From IMG/VR virus record IMGVR_UViG_3300027996_003878: a stretch of 64,000 nt of DNA; one strand, given 5' to 3'. The notes beneath the pieces are model-generated. The model was not told the origin of the DNA. It worked only from the letters and a program-made list of their open reading frames with translations, and did not search any database. Origin of the DNA: a virus (lineage: Duplodnaviria > Caudoviricetes). Positions 41,049 to 59,414 of the stretch are shown one piece after another. Both the position numbers and the translations under genes were made by a program. Within the stretch, counting starts at the first letter, position 1. Every line of letters begins with the position of its first letter.

Positions 41049-43508
41049 TTAGAGCAAACCTATGCTTACCTTAATATAAATCCAGTTAACTGGGTAAACT
41101 GGCTGAATTGCTACAGTTATATTCCATTGACGAGGCTCAACCTCATCCCGAACAACCTTCAAATCTCTGAAGTCTGTAATTAGTTTCGCGGAGATAAAGC
41201 TCGTTACCACATTATTCGCACGAGCCATCAAGGAGCCCTGTGTTGTCTCATCTTCGGCAGTACCAATAAAGCCAGTAAAAGCAGCTCTCATGCTCTTAGA
41301 GACTCTATCTCTAATGAAGACAATGCTTATCTCCTCCTCCTCTGGGAATCCACTTTGGGTTGTGGTCTTTCCCCAAATAACTCGGCCGCCGCCTGCGACC
41401 GGCTGAAGTACCGTCGCACCTGCTACTGCCAAGTTTTCCAAAGTAATTGGTCTGTAAAGCTTGTCTCGTAAGATTGAGAAGCCTGTCAAGACCTTGTTGG
41501 TAAGAGGTACTGACACAAGCGGAATGCCTGACAAGAAGCCTCCAGCCGCTGCGGCTTGGAAAAAACCGTCAACCTTCACTCTATCAGCTCCAATTTGAAC
41601 AACAACTTCATCTGGGTAAAAATAAACCACTCTGAAGGTGTTGCCATAATTATCTGGAATGCCATAATCTGTTAAGTCTTCAATGTTACCAGCCAAAACC
41701 TCAGTAACATCATCGCCTTGAATGCCCTCTAGAACACCCAAGTCTTCAACGGCGGCGGGCTCCGCTCCAGTAACATTTTCAGGCGTGAGACCTGCAATTG
41801 CTCCAATAAACAAGACCCTTTCTTTGCGATTCTTGATATTACTCATGGTTTCGCAATGAATTCTTGCAGCTTGGAAAATAGCACTTATTGTCTGAGAAGG
41901 AAGTGGGACTACGATATCACAATCAATCTTCTCTAAGGCCTCTAAGCCTGCCTGCCAACCTGGGTCAAAGAAATCTGCATCCTTAGTGTCAACAACCGTA
42001 GCTCGAAGTGATTCCCCGGCGCTTAGCGCTAAGTCATCTGTAAACAAAATTACAGAGCTTTGATCTGAGCTATCAATAACTTCAAACTCAATGCCAGTCT
42101 CAGCGGTGAATGGCACAAGACCAACAATTGTAGCCTTCCCATCAGTCACTGCGGAAATAGAATATGTCCCAGCATTTGCAGCTGGTGACAGTATCTTTAC
42201 ACTTCTGGTTGGACTTAAGTCATCTAATGTAAATAGAACTGTATCACTGCTCAGCTCAGCTGTAGTGGTTGGTACGCCCACTACTAACGCGCCATCATCT
42301 CCTTGTTTTTGAACAGAATCCTTTAAGATGACTGTGTAAGAATAAGTGTAGGCTGGACCAAAGTGAAAGCTATTAGGATCTGCTGTAATCGCAGGATCAT
42401 AAAATGCAACCTTATTAGGTACAATTTGTGTCTCTGTCTCTGTGATAGGATCCGTCACAAAGAAATTTATATTTGATCCTGTGTCAGGCGTTACATTCAA
42501 AGGTAAGGGGAACGAAAGATCATCCGCCGTAGCACCACCTGATGCCGATTCCTCTAATAAATATGAAACTCTTCTCGGCAAGCTAGGAGCACACTGAAGC
42601 GCCCAAACACCTGGCGGCCCATTTGCAAAAGCCAATTGCGCGCCAAGAGTTAGCCGATTTGCCAGACTAGCCTGACCGTGCTTTTGAGCTAATAAATCAA
42701 TATCACTAAAGAATTGAGGGTCATTTAATTCTGCTTCAGAAATATAAGTAGCTACGAGAGAGTCACCTGCCTGCAATGCTCCGCTCTGAACCTCAATAGT
42801 AAATACATCACCCTCAATAAAGGCACTTGAACCTTCTGTTATTGAAAATTGTAAAATCGTATTATCATTTACAACGCCATTCGACTCCCAAACTACCTGA
42901 TTTCCATTGTCATCAAGAATATTGCCACTTACAGAGCCAGTTGCTATAAACTTAGCATATCCATCAATTGGATTTCCATAACCATCTCTACGAACAGATG
43001 TGCAGCGAACAGTCCACGTTTCTGTAGGAGCGTTTAAATCAATTAACGTAAGGCCATTTATAGTGCCATTACCAACATTGATAGCATTTGGCTTATAAAA
43101 GGAGCCGCCCTGATCAACTAATGATGCTGTTTGGAGTTCAATACGACCATTACTAATATCAATTCTATAATCAAAAGAGGAGCTAAATCCAGGACTTGAA
43201 GGCGTAAATACCTGCTCTAAACCTACGAGAGGAATTCCATTCTTAAAAAGAGTTGTTCTATTCGAGACAACAGGCACAAAACTTAATAAAAAGTGCCTAC
43301 CATCACTGTTGTTTGTGGATGAGTAAGCAGGATTTAAACCATCATTGCCACCGCCAACAGCTGCGGATATTAATACTTCTTCACGAGCGCCTTCTCCAAG
43401 AATAGCCGTAAGTCTAACTCCGCCAGGTACAGCAACGCCCCGTGAATTAGTGACAACCTCGCTATAGACGCCTGGAAGTGCGTTAGTCGCTCCAGGAAAG
43501 TTTGGCAT
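41049..43508 (-). CDS. Tail sheath protein
   Basis: PGVYSEV N-terminus; GRVIWGKTT, SIVFIRDRV and C-terminal IQPVYPVNWIYI sheath motifs. Confidence 0.9.
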   Translation of the reverse strand: MPNFPGATNALPGVYSEVVTNSRGVAVPGGVRLTAILGEGAREEVLISAAVGGGNDGLNPAYSSTNNSDGRHFLLSFVPVVSNRTTLFKNGIPLVGLEQVFTPSSPGFSSSFDYRIDISNGRIELQTASLVDQGGSFYKPNAINVGNGTINGLTLIDLNAPTETWTVRCTSVRRDGYGNPIDGYAKFIATGSVSGNILDDNGNQVVWESNGVVNDNTILQFSITEGSSAFIEGDVFTIEVQSGALQAGDSLVATYISEAELNDPQFFSDIDLLAQKHGQASLANRLTLGAQLAFANGPPGVWALQCAPSLPRRVSYLLEESASGGATADDLSFPLPLNVTPDTGSNINFFVTDPITETETQIVPNKVAFYDPAITADPNSFHFGPAYTYSYTVILKDSVQKQGDDGALVVGVPTTTAELSSDTVLFTLDDLSPTRSVKILSPAANAGTYSISAVTDGKATIVGLVPFTAETGIEFEVIDSSDQSSVILFTDDLALSAGESLRATVVDTKDADFFDPGWQAGLEALEKIDCDIVVPLPSQTISAIFQAARIHCETMSNIKNRKERVLFIGAIAGLTPENVTGAEPAAVEDLGVLEGIQGDDVTEVLAGNIEDLTDYGIPDNYGNTFRVVYFYPDEVVVQIGADRVKVDGFFQAAAAGGFLSGIPLVSVPLTNKVLTGFSILRDKLYRPITLENLAVAGATVLQPVAGGGRVIWGKTTTQSGFPEEEEISIVFIRDRVSKSMRAAFTGFIGTAEDETTQGSLMARANNVVTSFISAKLITDFRDLKVVRDEVEPRQWNITVAIQPVYPVNWIYIKVSIGLL

Positions 43509-56631: not shown

Positions 56632-57210
56632 TTATAAATACAAACCTAAAGCTTTGGATACTGATTGCTCAATCGTCTCCTTATTGTAACCAACAATATA
56701 ACCCTTAACCTTCATATCTCTGCCTATCACAACAAATGTTGGCCAACCGCGAACTCGCCAGCCATCATGCCCTTTTGTCTTAAGCAAAGCATAACTTCCC
56801 AGCAATACAGGCTCTTTTATCTTAAACCCCTCCGCCCAATGCTTAAGATATTTTTGATTTAGAGGAGACCACCCATCACCATCGGCAAGTATAGTCAAAT
56901 ATGAAAAGCCATATCGCTTATACTTATTTCTAGTAGATGTGACATCTTTAGCGGCAATTTTACAGACATAGCACCAGCCCGCGCTAAAATCTAATAGGAT
57001 GACCTGCCTATAATGTTTATATAGAGAGAGGGTATTTCCATTTTGGTCTTGCAGCGTGAAATCACAAGCAATATCCCCCACTTCATATCCACATCTATCT
57101 GACTCAAACTCATAATTATTATCATAATTAAAATTATTGAAATAATTTGAGCTGCATCTAGATAATAAAATAATAAAAAATAAAGTAAAAAATAATTTAA
57201 TTAAATTCAT
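56632..57210 (-). CDS. TlpA/ResA-like thioredoxin-fold oxidoreductase with signal peptide / possible lipobox
   Basis: Hydrophobic N-terminus ending LSRC; DFTLQDQNG; LDFSAGWCYVCK (CxxC); GWPT cis-Pro loop. Confidence 0.8.
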   Translation of the reverse strand: MNLIKLFFTLFFIILLSRCSSNYFNNFNYDNNYEFESDRCGYEVGDIACDFTLQDQNGNTLSLYKHYRQVILLDFSAGWCYVCKIAAKDVTSTRNKYKRYGFSYLTILADGDGWSPLNQKYLKHWAEGFKIKEPVLLGSYALLKTKGHDGWRVRGWPTFVVIGRDMKVKGYIVGYNKETIEQSVSKALGLYL

Positions 57211-57246: not shown

Positions 57247-57591
57247 CTAGATACTAAAAGACTCACCGCAGCCGCAAGAAGATCTGCTATCAGAATTAAC
57301 AAATTCAAACCCTTGATATTTTAAAGTTTTTTTCCAATTTAAAACAACACCATTTAAAAATAAAATACTTTTTTTATCACAGTAAACATAAAAATTTTTA
57401 CTATTAAATTGAAATTCAAAAACAATATCTTTATCTGTCGCACTTTTATCATCAAATTCAATGATATAACGAAAGCCGGAGCAGCCCCCACCCTTTACCC
57501 CGACTCTTAAAGCGCCCGAATTTCTTTCTTCCAGCTTTTTAGAAACCATTTCAATAGCTGATTCAGTTAAATTAAAAGTATACTCATTCAT
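57247..57591 (-). CDS. iscA: A-type Fe-S carrier protein (IscA/HesB family)
   Basis: LRVGVKGGGCSGFRY and CGCGESF. Confidence 0.92.
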   Translation of the reverse strand: MNEYTFNLTESAIEMVSKKLEERNSGALRVGVKGGGCSGFRYIIEFDDKSATDKDIVFEFQFNSKNFYVYCDKKSILFLNGVVLNWKKTLKYQGFEFVNSDSRSSCGCGESFSI

Positions 57592-58474
57592 TTTTGCTTT
57601 CTAGTAACCCTAACGCTTTTTGTTTGTTTTTATAATTATTAATCGCTGACTTAATTGCATCTTCAGCAAGAACTGAACAATGTATCTTGACTGGGGGTAA
57701 ATTCAACTCATCAACAATATCTATATTTTTAATGCTTTCAGCTTCTTGCAAGGTTTTACCTTTTAACCATTCAGTGACTAAGGAACTAGACGCTATAGCA
57801 GACCCGCATCCAAAAGTTTTATACTTGGCATCTTCAATTATGCCATCATCATTTACCTTAATCTGAAGCCTCATGACATCACCACAATTGTGAACAAATA
57901 TCCCCTTATGCTCGCTATCTGAAACTTTAGTTATAATAGAAAAATTTGATAAAGGCTCTACTGTTAAACAATAAACATCGCGCCTACCTGCCGGAATCAC
58001 TTCAATCACCTTAGGGCTAGAGCTGAATATTTCTTGCTTCAACATTCCCTTTTCAAAGCTTCGCGTAAATGGCATTAATCTTATATTTTTAGAATCAGCC
58101 GCTTTAACCCACCGGTTAGCTATATCACTTCTTGTCCTTATTAAATGATCCGTAGTACATTCAAGGAATGAGCCATTATCTAAAATCAACTTTACGCACT
58201 CAGCGCTCTCTTTTGTTAATCTGGGCAAATATCCATTAGAAATAACCACACCATCGTCATCTGAATAAGAATAAACAGAGGTATTTTTTTTTAATTCAGA
58301 TAATTGTTTTATTGAAATAACATCTTTATTTCGAGGCACTGCAACTAAAGTATCGCCAACAAGGCAAGCCGGAGAGCCAACCAAACCTGTACCAACATTA
58401 GAGTTATCTTTATCTAAAGTACCAACATTTCTTGGATTTTCAAAATGATCAATTACCTTTTTTGAATAGCTCAT
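57584..58474 (-). CDS. iscU: Fe-S scaffold IscU containing a 160-aa intein (136 aa after splicing)
   Basis: YSKKVIDHFENPRNVG...GSPA | intein | CGDVMRLQIKV...TFGCGSAIASSS...LPPVKIHCSVLAEDA. All three Cys ligands, the Asp and LPPVK are present. Confidence 0.95.
   Translation of the reverse strand: MSYSKKVIDHFENPRNVGTLDKDNSNVGTGLVGSPACLVGDTLVAVPRNKDVISIKQLSELKKNTSVYSYSDDDGVVISNGYLPRLTKESAECVKLILDNGSFLECTTDHLIRTRSDIANRWVKAADSKNIRLMPFTRSFEKGMLKQEIFSSSPKVIEVIPAGRRDVYCLTVEPLSNFSIITKVSDSEHKGIFVHNCGDVMRLQIKVNDDGIIEDAKYKTFGCGSAIASSSLVTEWLKGKTLQEAESIKNIDIVDELNLPPVKIHCSVLAEDAIKSAINNYKNKQKALGLLESKNE
57887..58366 (-). mobile_element. Class 1 mini-intein without a homing endonuclease
   Basis: Block A CLVGDTLV, block B CTTDH, block F DVYCLTV, block G FVHN followed by Cys+1. 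Confidence 0.93.
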
Positions 58475-58511: not shown

Positions 58512-59414
58512 TTAAAACAACTGACGCGCACGCAAATGACGAAGTCTTGCTATAGCTGGATTGCGTGATGCAGCGACAGTGAGTGTCCCCAAGCCCTTGG
58601 GAGAGGGTTTCATATTAAACTTGATAAGTTTAAGCTTCTCAAAGTGATTCTGTAACTCAGATCCATACTGAGAGTTTAACATATCTGAAACACTTGGCGG
58701 ATTAAAGTTAATCCCATTATCAGTAATGGTAAACTCTCTGCCTCTCTCAATTAGTGCTTTACTCGATAGCGCATGAATTACAGCACCTTGAACAATAATA
58801 TCGTGAAATTGATCAATAATCTGCGTATGATCAAATCCAAAAAAAGTAAAATGAGGTATTTCATTAAACATAGTTAATGAATTAGCCAAAAAAGTGACTA
58901 ATGTATCTACAGTGTAGATATCACAGTCAACATAAATTTCATTGCCAAACTCATCTTTACTTTTTGACTTACCCGAGCTGTTTAGCCGAGCTTTCAAAGT
59001 CTTTAAAAGCTTATTTATGTTTTGGATAGCAATTTGACTATAATTAAAGCCAGGATCGTCTCCCAGATGAACATATCCATCTGTATTAATTTGTGGCATC
59101 TGAGTATTCTGTACAACGAAATTAAATGATCCTGACACATTGAATCCATTTAATACGCCGTCCCAAATATCATTCCAAACACCCAACGAGGAGTTTAGTC
59201 CTATAGTAAAATCATAACCATAAAGACCTTCACTTAATCTATAAATACCAATACTTGTAGCAGCTAGCGCTACATTTCCACTTGGCTGTACTATTGTAAT
59301 TGTAGGAAATGCATCAAGATCTTTCGGATTGCCGTCTGAGCCTTTAAACAATGCTCTTAACTGAACAGTTTCAGTATAACCTACAACTTCTCCACGTGAT
59401 CGAAATACACTCAT
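58512..59414 (-). CDS. Head-tail adaptor/neck-like protein with N-terminal Ig-like domain
   Basis: N-terminal beta-sandwich (RLSEGLYGYDF..GVWNDIW) and a helical C-terminal part; contains DGY. Confidence 0.45.
   Translation of the reverse strand: MSVFRSRGEVVGYTETVQLRALFKGSDGNPKDLDAFPTITIVQPSGNVALAATSIGIYRLSEGLYGYDFTIGLNSSLGVWNDIWDGVLNGFNVSGSFNFVVQNTQMPQINTDGYVHLGDDPGFNYSQIAIQNINKLLKTLKARLNSSGKSKSKDEFGNEIYVDCDIYTVDTLVTFLANSLTMFNEIPHFTFFGFDHTQIIDQFHDIIVQGAVIHALSSKALIERGREFTITDNGINFNPPSVSDMLNSQYGSELQNHFEKLKLIKFNMKPSPKGLGTLTVAASRNPAIARLRHLRARQLF

What the first reader, a model, noticed from the sequence alone, without database searches (positions are those of the whole stretch)
57887..58366. Mini-intein inserted exactly before the first Fe-S-ligating Cys of IscU
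Seen: ...GSPA | CLVGD...FVHN | CGDVM. The +1 nucleophile is the residue equivalent to E. coli IscU Cys37, so the scaffold should be inactive until splicing. The intein has no endonuclease and four Cys (C1, ECVK, CTTDH, VYCL). Established: the M. tuberculosis SufB intein splices conditionally under oxidative/nitrosative stress, and inteins favour conserved active sites. I do not recall IscU as a described intein host, but this needs checking. Inference: a redox- or metal-gated post-translational switch on phage Fe-S assembly, and a convergent targeting of Fe-S scaffolds.
Basis: partly seen in the sequence, partly recalled or inferred. Interest (0 to 1): 0.8.

Follow-up and report, generated by a model that had tools for sequence, protein, structure and literature searches.

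The report
Mini-intein in marine phage IscU
The iron-sulfur scaffold gene iscU of a large marine phage is interrupted, directly before its first cluster-binding cysteine, by a genuine self-splicing mini-intein; the element is an ordinary type in a host gene that I could not find described in the literature, and nothing shows that it acts as a switch.

Summary
ORF 57584-58474 (- strand, 296 aa) is a true IscU. A 160-aa insert (57887-58366) splits it so that E. coli IscU residues 1-36 and 37-127 align on either side, which makes the +1 Cys equal to Cys37. The insert has every class 1 intein hallmark: Cys1, Thr71/His74, His159-Asn160 and Cys+1. It passes both NCBIfam intein models and folds as a HINT domain (pLDDT 93). 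It has no endonuclease.

It is not unique. At least 87 metagenomic IscU clusters from phages and giant-virus MAGs carry an intein at this site, either mini or HNH-bearing. Ten CPR, DPANN and Omnitrophota genomes carry a LAGLIDADG intein there. Six alleles have a second intein at Cys63. On the tree, mini and HNH forms interleave, so the window's element is an endonuclease-deleted remnant of a homing intein.

I found no paper describing IscU or NifU as an intein host. This scan has already noted IscU inteins in at least 14 other genomes.

The redox or metal switch is untested. An active-site Cys133 (block F:4) next to Cys1 makes oxidative trapping chemically possible. However, F:4 is Asp, Thr or Asn in the other IscU inteins, so the selfish-element reading is favoured.

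The parts
57584..58474 (-). iscU precursor gene (296 aa, including stop): N-extein + mini-intein + C-extein
   Evidence: ORF list and translation. TIGR01999 iscU 213.6 bits vs cutoff 192.4. PF01592 NifU_N E=2.8e-49 in two stretches.
58367..58474 (-). N-extein, IscU residues 1-36 (ends ...GSPA)
   Evidence: Aligns to E. coli IscU 2l4x residues 1-36.
57887..58366 (-). Class 1 mini-intein, 160 aa, no homing endonuclease
   Evidence: TIGR01445 and TIGR01443 above cutoff. HINT fold, pLDDT 93.1, top PDB matches Mtu RecA, Npu DnaE and Ssp DnaB mini-inteins. Invariant C1, H74, G155 and N160 in 55 allelic mini-inteins.
58364..58366 (-). Cys1 codon (block A nucleophile, step 1)
   Evidence: Translation. 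Invariant in alignments A1 and A2.
58145..58156 (-). Block B T-x-x-H (Thr71...His74)
   Evidence: The role of B:7 and B:10 is described in PMC4031507.
57968..57970 (-). Cys133 codon = block F position 4, where most inteins have Asp
   Evidence: Motif D-V-Y-C-L. Invariant in the window's subgroup. The profile aligns it to the Y-D-I Asp of Npu DnaE.
57887..57892 (-). Block G His159-Asn160 (Asn cyclisation, step 3)
   Evidence: Asn160 is invariant.
57584..57886 (-). C-extein, IscU residues 37-136 of the spliced product plus stop; the first codon (57884-57886) is Cys+1 = IscU Cys37
   Evidence: Aligns to E. coli IscU residues 37-127. 84-87% identical to ordinary bacterial IscU.
57247..57591 (-). 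iscA-type carrier gene; its start overlaps the iscU stop by 8 nt (context)
   Evidence: PF01521 Fe-S_biosyn E=4.3e-13. IscA is also next to intein-bearing iscU in other viral contigs.
60849..61943 (-). Cysteine desulfurase-like gene (iscS-type) upstream on the same strand (context)
   Evidence: PF00266 Aminotran_5 on the called gene in identical contigs.

Best explanation
The insert is a class 1 mini-intein. It is the endonuclease-deleted remnant of an HNH-type homing intein that invaded a viral iscU gene at the codon of ligand Cys37.

Proposed pathway. The 296-aa precursor cannot bind a cluster, because 160 residues separate Ala36 from Cys37. After translation the HINT domain folds and splices autocatalytically:
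1. Cys1 makes the N-terminal thioester, assisted by Thr71, His74 and the F:4 residue Cys133.
2. Cys+1 (IscU Cys37) attacks to form the branched intermediate.
3. Asn160 cyclises, assisted by His159.
4. An S-to-N shift restores the native ...GSPA-CGDVM... peptide.
The products are a normal 136-aa IscU and a free 18-kDa intein.

Why it sits there. Homing endonucleases prefer invariant DNA, inteins need a Cys/Ser/Thr at +1, and imprecise loss at an essential residue is lethal to the gene. No regulatory purpose is needed to explain the position, and splicing is most likely constitutive in the reducing cytoplasm.

Basis. Shown here: the anatomy, the exact site, the fold, conservation of the catalytic residues, and the relationship to HNH-bearing alleles. 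Inferred: that the intein actually splices, and that splicing is unregulated.
For: - Exact site and intact exteins.
- Intein HMMs above cutoff.
- HINT fold with pLDDT 93.1, and PDB mini-inteins as the top 50 matches.
- C1, H74, G155 and N160 invariant, and T71 at least 90% conserved, in 55 allelic mini-inteins.
- The window intein aligns at residues 1-107 and 114-160 to the two ends of the 326-aa HNH_3-bearing allele P0005, so about 170 aa of endonuclease are missing.
- On a tree of splicing domains, mini and long forms interleave. Parsimony needs 17 changes and well-supported branches force at least 6, with near-identical mini/long sister pairs such as P0008/P0009. This means repeated endonuclease loss, as in the homing cycle.
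- Intein GC and GC3 (0.352 / 0.275) match the exteins (about 0.345 / 0.255), so it is a long-term resident.
- The extein is 84-87% identical to ordinary bacterial IscU and keeps the Cys, His and LPPVK motifs, so the gene is under purifying selection and must yield a functional product.
- The identical protein is on at least 24 contigs from many marine samples. Strain variants inside the intein are one synonymous change and four conservative changes, all away from catalytic residues, with no frameshift or stop.
- The F:4 residue differs among IscU inteins (Cys, Asp, Thr, Asn), which argues against a family-wide specialised sensor.
- Redox inhibition is not universal, even among class 1 Cys inteins: PMC6195587.
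Against: - No experiment or proteomic evidence of splicing is available here.
- Three cysteines (Cys1, Cys133 at F:4, Cys+1) converge on the active site. F:4 is known to contact the Cys1 and Cys+1 thiols in solved inteins (PMC4031507), so oxidative or metal trapping of the precursor is chemically plausible.
- Retention of inteins at ligand cysteines of Fe-S scaffolds in many lineages could reflect more than selfishness.
- The neighbouring genes include a redoxin.
Confidence: 0.72

Rival explanations
1. The intein is a conditional protein-splicing switch. Oxidation (a Cys1-Cys133 or Cys1-Cys+1 disulfide, or S-nitrosylation) or metal binding (Zn, Cu, Fe) at the cysteine-rich active site reversibly blocks splicing. 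Phage IscU is then activated only when the infected cell is reducing or metal-replete. The intein is retained because this gating is useful.
For: - Cys1, Cys133 (F:4) and Cys+1 all lie at the catalytic centre. F:4 is positioned to contact the Cys1 and Cys+1 thiols (PMC4031507).
- Cys133 is invariant in the window's subgroup.
- There is precedent. The Mtu SufB intein is sensitive to ROS and RNS, and Msm DnaBi1 is trapped through its F:4 Cys (PMC6195587).
- Inteins are generally inhibited by divalent cations (PMC4031507).
- The same site is occupied in phages, giant viruses, CPR and DPANN.
Against: - There are no functional data.
- F:4 is Asp, Thr or Asn in the other IscU-site inteins, and Cys57 and Cys70 are not conserved.
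- F:4 Cys is the second commonest residue at that position in inteins generally.
- Redox sensitivity is not universal among class 1 Cys inteins.
- The mini/HNH interleaving fits selfish dynamics.
Confidence: 0.15
2. The intein is mechanistically unusual, with dual or alternative nucleophiles. Cys133 at F:4 can attack the N-terminal splice junction as in class 3 inteins. The element would then be intermediate between class 1 and class 3 chemistry.
For: - F:4 Cys is conserved in the subgroup.
Against: - Cys1 is present and invariant.
- The other two residues of the class 3 W-C-T triplet are absent: B:12 is Ile76 and G:5 is Val158.
Confidence: 0.05
3. The intein is dead and the phage iscU is a non-functional relic.
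For: - The endonuclease is lost.
- Pfam Intein_splicing scores below its gathering cutoff (20-23 vs 35.8 bits).
- Four of five strain variants in the intein are non-synonymous.
Against: - All catalytic residues are intact.
- The exteins are 84-87% identical to functional IscU.
- The frame is open in every contig seen.
- The strain variants are conservative and lie outside the catalytic blocks.
Confidence: 0.03

Closest known systems
Mycobacterium tuberculosis SufB (Pps1) intein
   Same: It is a class 1 Cys1/Cys+1 intein inside a scaffold protein of Fe-S cluster assembly. [quoted passage not shown]
   Different: The host protein and pathway differ (SufB of SUF versus IscU of ISC). It is in a bacterial chromosome, not a phage. 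From my own knowledge, the SufB intein is larger, with an endonuclease-derived domain, and its +1 residue is not one of the classical three cluster-ligating cysteines of a U-type scaffold. There is no specific sequence relationship: it is not among the hits.
IscU/NifU Cys37-site inteins of CPR bacteria, DPANN archaea and Omnitrophota (public MAGs; no paper found)
   Same: The insertion point is identical (GNPx|C...HN|CGDVM) in the same host protein family.
   Different: They are about 375-381 aa with a LAGLIDADG endonuclease. Their splicing domains form a separate, long-branched clade (100% SH-aLRT). F:4 is Asn. Their hosts are cellular.
HNH_3-bearing IscU inteins of uncultured phages (e.g. 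P0005, P0012, P0015)
   Same: They share the site and the intein lineage: 44-47% identity in the splicing domain, the same D-V-Y-C block F and the same V-H-N end.
   Different: They keep an HNH endonuclease insert of about 170-190 aa, sometimes with NUMOD3, between blocks B and F. The window's copy has lost it.
Solved mini-inteins: Mtu RecA splicing domain (2in9), Npu DnaE (4kl5), Ssp DnaB (1mi8, 6frh)
   Same: They share the HINT fold (TM 0.72-0.86, probability 1.00) and the block A, B, F and G layout.
   Different: Sequence identity is only 16-22%. They have Asp rather than Cys at F:4, and their host proteins are different.
Mycobacterium smegmatis DnaBi1 (class 3 intein, redox-trapped through its F:4 Cys)
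   Same: It has a Cys at block F:4 in the active site. The catalytic Cys forms an intramolecular disulfide under H2O2.
   Different: DnaBi1 lacks an N-terminal nucleophile and has the W-C-T triplet. The window's intein has Cys1 and lacks the Trp and Thr.

Membership tests
Intein (class 1 protein-splicing element) | Cys/Ser nucleophile as the first residue (block A) | tested here: met
   Cys1 begins the motif C-L-V-G-D-T-L-V. It is invariant in 55 alleles.
Intein (class 1 protein-splicing element) | Block B Thr-x-x-His | tested here: met
   Thr71 and His74 are present. His is invariant and Thr is at least 90% conserved.
Intein (class 1 protein-splicing element) | C-terminal (His)-Asn followed by a Cys/Ser/Thr +1 extein residue | tested here: met
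   His159-Asn160, then Cys+1. Asn160 is invariant.
Intein (class 1 protein-splicing element) | In-frame insertion whose removal restores a contiguous, conserved host protein | tested here: met
   E. coli IscU residues 1-36 and 37-127 align to query 1-36 and 197-287 with no residue lost or gained.
Intein (class 1 protein-splicing element) | HINT fold | tested here: met
   AF2 pLDDT 93.1 and pTM 0.89. There are 57 PDB matches at E<=1e-3, and the listed matches are almost all inteins, with a few related bacterial intein-like domains.
Intein (class 1 protein-splicing element) | Curated family HMM scores above threshold | tested here: inconclusive
   TIGR01445 scores 29.6 (cutoff 24.5) and TIGR01443 scores 18.4 (cutoff 15.6), so both pass. 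Pfam PF14890 scores 20-23 bits, below its 35.8 cutoff.
Intein (class 1 protein-splicing element) | Demonstrated protein splicing (ligated exteins plus free intein) | not testable with these tools
   This needs expression with western blot or mass spectrometry.
Mini-intein (no homing endonuclease) | No endonuclease domain between blocks B and F | tested here: met
   It is 160 aa with no HNH or LAGLIDADG hit. About 170 aa are missing relative to the HNH allele P0005.
Class 3 intein | No N-terminal nucleophile; W(B:12)-C(F:4)-T(G:5) triplet | tested here: not met
   Cys1 is present. B:12 is Ile76, F:4 is Cys133 and G:5 is Val158. Only the Cys of the triplet is there.
IscU (U-type Fe-S scaffold, TIGR01999) | Equivalog HMM above cutoff, with the conserved ligand Cys37, Cys63 and Cys106 context and the LPPVK motif | tested here: met
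   213.6 bits vs cutoff 192.4. The C-G-D-V-M, G-C-G-S-A and L-P-P-V-K-I-H-C-S motifs are all visible in the alignment to 2l4x.
Conditional (redox- or metal-sensitive) inteins, e.g. Mtu SufB and Msm DnaBi1 | A catalytic Cys with a nearby partner Cys able to form a disulfide | tested here: inconclusive
   By homology, Cys1, Cys133 (F:4) and Cys+1 lie at the active site.
Conditional (redox- or metal-sensitive) inteins, e.g. Mtu SufB and Msm DnaBi1 | Splicing reversibly inhibited by oxidants, nitrosative agents or metals | not testable with these tools
   This is a biochemical assay.

The most novel reading that the evidence does not exclude
The Cys1 / Cys133 (F:4) / Cys+1 (IscU Cys37) triad makes the phage IscU precursor a reversible redox or metal sensor, so the scaffold matures only when the infected marine cell is reducing or iron-replete. 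More broadly, inteins at the ligand cysteines of IscU persist because they gate Fe-S assembly post-translationally. I verified Cys37 and Cys63 here; a Cys106-site case is reported elsewhere in this scan and is unchecked. These inteins occur in phages, giant viruses, CPR bacteria and DPANN archaea.
Probability: 0.12. Interest if true: 0.75.

Novelty: new member of a known kind. Interest (0 to 1): 0.45.

Why it matters
Inteins are argued to be either pure parasites or post-translational sensors. The best-studied sensor candidate in Fe-S metabolism is the mycobacterial SufB intein.

An intein whose +1 nucleophile is itself a cluster ligand of the central ISC scaffold is a clean natural test case. 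The protein is obligatorily inactive until it splices. The splicing chemistry also uses the same thiol that later binds iron and sulfur.

The data here show that this site is a widespread hot-spot that I could not find described in the literature. It is shared by marine jumbo phages, giant-virus MAGs and tiny-celled prokaryotes, and two different endonuclease lineages occupy it. That is useful for intein censuses, for annotation (these genes are currently labelled simply NifU-like) and for choosing compact natural Cys/Cys mini-inteins as tools. If splicing proved to be redox- or metal-gated, it would add a viral layer of control over host Fe-S biogenesis.

Tried and rejected
- **Whole genome:** none is held for this window.
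- **Cultured relatives:** megablast of 20 kb against the phage collection found nothing, so there is no cultured relative.
- **IMG/VR scan with the subgroup alignment A2:** it returned 30 loci, but the flanks show they are related inteins in other proteins (RNR-like ...TNPC|C, portal-like ...EMEY|C and others), not IscU. The scan with A1 found only three giant-virus MAG IscU loci.
- **Genome-contig scans:** the scan with A1 found nothing, because its pattern was biased towards the giant-virus type block F.
- **Junction DNA pattern in genome contigs:** it gave 49 loci. Of these, 39 are chance matches, mostly a short Rhizobium ORF, and 10 are true IscU inteins.
- **Other inteins in the window:** tblastn with 87 IscU inteins found none.
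- **Sequencing runs:** no RNA holder was listed. Contigs of four marine DNA runs gave no joint that skips the intein, so no intein-free allele was seen. Contigs drop rare variants, so this is not proof of absence.
- **Papers not held:** Nicastri 2013 (PMC3801215) and Topilina 2015 (PMC4547236).
- **Supplements not held:** those of the intein surveys PMC4760082 and PMC10710043. An IscU entry buried in a supplementary table or in InBase cannot be excluded.
- **Cys-Cys distances:** the structure tool returns no coordinates, so distances could not be measured.
- **Class 3 mechanism:** considered and rejected on the missing Trp and Thr and the presence of Cys1.
- **BIL or Hint cleavage domain:** considered and rejected, because the exteins reconstitute IscU perfectly and a +1 Cys is present.

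Full report
**1. The observation**

The window's minus strand carries a 296-aa ORF at 57584-58474. It is an IscU. It scores 213.6 bits on NCBIfam TIGR01999 (cutoff 192.4) and E=2.8e-49 on Pfam NifU_N, in both cases as two separated stretches.

phmmer against all PDB chains aligns E. coli IscU (2l4x) residues 1-36 to query 1-36, and residues 37-127 to query 197-287. The 160 residues encoded by 57887-58366 are therefore an exact insertion between Ala36 and Cys37. The residue after the insert is the Cys37 equivalent, which by established knowledge is the first of the three cluster-ligating cysteines of IscU.

**2. It is an intein**

- The insert passes both NCBIfam intein models: TIGR01445 at 29.6 (cutoff 24.5) and TIGR01443 at 18.4 (cutoff 15.6).
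- Pfam's Intein_splicing model hits it only below its cutoff.
- It has Cys1, the block B Thr71-x-x-His74, a block F motif D-V-Y-C-L-T-V-E, and block G His159-Asn160 followed by Cys+1.
- In an alignment of 55 mini-inteins from the same site in other IscU genes, C1, H74, G155 and N160 are invariant and T6, T71, D73, Y132, L134, V136 and E137 are at least 90% conserved.
- AlphaFold2 with that alignment gives pLDDT 93.1 and pTM 0.89.
- Foldseek against PDB returns solved mini-inteins as the best matches (Mtu RecA, Npu DnaE, Ssp DnaB; TM 0.72-0.86, probability 1.00).
- No endonuclease domain is found.
- It is not a class 3 intein. Cys1 is present, and the Trp (B:12) and Thr (G:5) of the W-C-T triplet are Ile76 and Val158.

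**3. The genome**

No whole genome is held, and there is no near relative among deposited phages. The window has a tail-sheath gene (phrog_2839 at 41049-43508). The identical IscU precursor is encoded on at least 24 contigs of up to about 296 kb from many ENA, JGI and Logan samples. The DNA is held by seawater, marine and estuary metagenomes from 19 studies. This is a recurrent marine jumbo myophage.

The gene sits on one strand with an iscS-like desulfurase (60849-61943), an iscA-type carrier (57247-57591, overlapping the iscU stop by 8 nt) and a redoxin (56632-57210).

**4. It is one of a large, undescribed family**

A length-restricted homology search (163-518 aa) listed 120 best hits. A script that aligned each hit to the spliced extein found 87 with an intein at exactly this site (G-A-P-A|C ... 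N|C-G-D-V-M). Of these, 55 are minis of 144-202 aa and 32 are long forms of 236-375 aa.

The long viral forms carry an HNH_3 endonuclease, sometimes with NUMOD3. Six proteins carry a second intein before Cys63 (K-T-F-G|C ... H-N|C-G-S-A).

The genomic contexts are viral:
- Phage-like contigs with IscA, ThyX, dCMP deaminase and RNA ligase.
- For the C-I-H-E-D-T ... K-N group, giant-virus MAGs. The IMG/VR names are GVMAG-M-..., and the neighbours include Evr1/Alr, cytochrome b5 and patatin.

A DNA pattern for the C-terminal junction, scanned over 185,579 species-representative prokaryote genomes, found 10 true cases among 49 loci:
- Saccharibacteria (2)
- Nealsonbacteria
- Gribaldobacteria
- Omnitrophota (2)
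- An Actinobacteria MAG
- Woesearchaeota
- Aenigmatarchaeota
- One uncultured bacterium

These have inteins of 374-381 aa at the same cysteine. Those inteins carry LAGLIDADG endonucleases.

Full-text searches for intein with IscU or NifU gave nothing relevant. The main text of the large prokaryotic intein survey does not mention them either, and its supplements were not available. Earlier agents of this scan reached the same conclusion on at least 14 other genomes, mostly the LAGLIDADG cellular form. I verified the cellular form independently.

**5. Origin of the window's copy**

Its closest relatives are the D-V-Y-C / V-H-N subgroup. BLASTP against the 326-aa HNH-bearing allele P0005 aligns window intein residues 1-107 to P0005 residues 1-110, and residues 114-160 to 280-326. 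The roughly 170-aa endonuclease module is simply absent.

I built a maximum-likelihood tree of the splicing domains from 94 inteins, using the first 95 and last 48 residues of each. The cellular LAGLIDADG inteins form one clade (100% SH-aLRT). Within the viral clade, mini and long forms are interleaved. Parsimony needs 17 changes, well-supported branches force at least 6, and there are almost identical mini/long sister pairs. This is the expected picture of the homing cycle: invasion, fixation, endonuclease decay, and persistence of a splicing-competent mini-intein.

Base composition of the intein equals that of the exteins, so it is not a recent arrival. Beyond the IscU alleles, the nearest inteins lie in T4-like portal proteins and a family A DNA polymerase of uncultured phages. 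IMG/VR relatives sit in RNR-, portal- and terminase-like genes. This is a typical phage intein pool.

**6. How it most likely works**

The steps below are established for class 1 inteins (PMC4031507):
1. Cys1 forms a thioester with the N-extein, assisted by Thr B:7, His B:10 and residue F:4.
2. Cys+1 attacks to give the branched intermediate.
3. The terminal Asn cyclises, assisted by His G:6.
4. An S-to-N shift gives the native peptide bond.

All of these residues are present here. The product would be a 136-aa IscU that is 84-87% identical to ordinary bacterial IscU over the C-extein.

The precursor cannot be a scaffold, because Cys37 is both displaced and chemically engaged.

Several observations indicate that the gene is maintained and therefore that the intein splices:
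- The exteins are highly conserved.
- The frame is open in all contigs.
- The strain variants seen in four independent marine runs are one synonymous and four conservative substitutions in the intein (D81D, K106R, S115N, I144V, V148I). None falls in a catalytic block.

Splicing itself remains inferred.

**7. The switch hypothesis**

For it:
- Cys133 occupies block F:4. The profile alignment places it on the Y-D-I Asp of Npu DnaE.
- In solved inteins this position contacts the Cys1 and Cys+1 thiols, and in class 3 inteins it is itself the nucleophile.
- Cys133 is invariant in the window's subgroup.
- Disulfides involving active-site cysteines make some inteins redox-sensitive, and inteins are generally inhibited by divalent cations.

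Against it:
- F:4 Cys is the second commonest residue at that position among all inteins.
- Other IscU-site inteins have Asp, Thr or Asn there.
- Cys57 and Cys70 are not conserved.
- Redox inhibition is not general, even among class 1 Cys inteins.
- Site choice and persistence are fully explained by homing to invariant DNA, the need for a +1 nucleophile, and the lethality of imprecise excision.

I put the selfish, constitutively splicing remnant at about 0.72 and the adaptive switch at about 0.15.

**8. Verdict**

This is a real, intact mini-intein at a functionally critical residue. It belongs to a widespread IscU-intein family that I could not find described in the literature, and its mechanism is ordinary. 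It is a new member (a new host gene and site, with a viral HNH-derived lineage) of a well-known kind. I rate it of moderate interest, mainly as a natural test case for conditional protein splicing in Fe-S biogenesis and as an annotation gap.

Noticed in passing
Proteins P0016, P0048, P0062, P0064, P0082, P0100 (e.g. locus L012:1969-3267): Six metagenomic IscU genes carry two inteins. One is at Cys37. The second is a mini-intein of 146-174 aa directly before the second ligand Cys63 (K-T-F-G|C...H-N|C-G-S-A). In L012 the gene is followed by a FliMN_C-like ORF, an HMA metal-binding ORF and two IscA genes.
   Followed up: partly
L010 / L011 / L013-L015 (IMG/VR GVMAG-M-3300009149-34 and GVMAG-M-3300027771-3): Giant-virus MAGs encode an IscU with an N-terminal extension of about 12-20 aa and a mini-intein at the same Cys37 site (C-I-H-E-D-T ... 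I-I-K-N). The neighbours include an Evr1/Alr sulfhydryl oxidase, thioredoxin, cytochrome b5, patatin and three GATase/Peptidase_C26 genes.
   Followed up: partly
Alignment A1 and the table: Most IscU-site inteins lack the penultimate His (G:6). They have Lys (most), Ser or Arg before the terminal Asn. The window's subgroup mostly keeps His. [quoted passage not shown]
   Followed up: no
L048, L061, L067, L069, L077, L079, L082, L083, L084, L090: Ten species-representative MAGs carry a LAGLIDADG intein of about 375-381 aa at the same IscU/NifU cysteine. They are CPR bacteria, Omnitrophota, an Actinobacteria MAG and DPANN archaea. Bacterial and archaeal copies are intermixed on the tree, which suggests cross-domain transfer.
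   Followed up: partly
L016-L045 (IMG/VR): Inteins with a near-identical block A (C-[LF]-x-G-D-T-L-[VI]-A) sit in other viral genes. These include an RNR-like gene after ...G-T-N-P-C, a gene after ...F-Q-E-M-E-Y (portal-like by analogy) and a gene after ...L-E-D-H. This is the same phage intein pool as the IscU element.
   Followed up: no
window 56632-57210 (-): A TlpA/AhpC-type redoxin (C-x-x-C motif W-C-Y-V-C) has an N-terminal hydrophobic signal-like segment ending in Cys. It is therefore probably exported or membrane-anchored rather than a cytoplasmic partner of IscU.
   Followed up: no
window 57584-57591: The iscU stop and the iscA start overlap by 8 nt, which suggests translational coupling. 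IscA also directly follows or neighbours intein-bearing iscU in unrelated viral contigs (L007, L008/L009, L095).
   Followed up: no
window 57841-58124, and 58518-58724: Marine strain variants of this phage (runs X10, X14, X16) differ at six positions in iscU. Five of these changes are non-synonymous but conservative, and four of the five are in the intein. Both variants in iscA are synonymous.
   Followed up: partly
Proteins P0013, P0018, P0021, P0023, P0032, P0037: Several metagenomic 'IscU' proteins of 183-224 aa contain internal tandem duplications of 57-87 aa of the IscU core rather than inteins. They may be assembly artefacts or real duplications.
   Followed up: no
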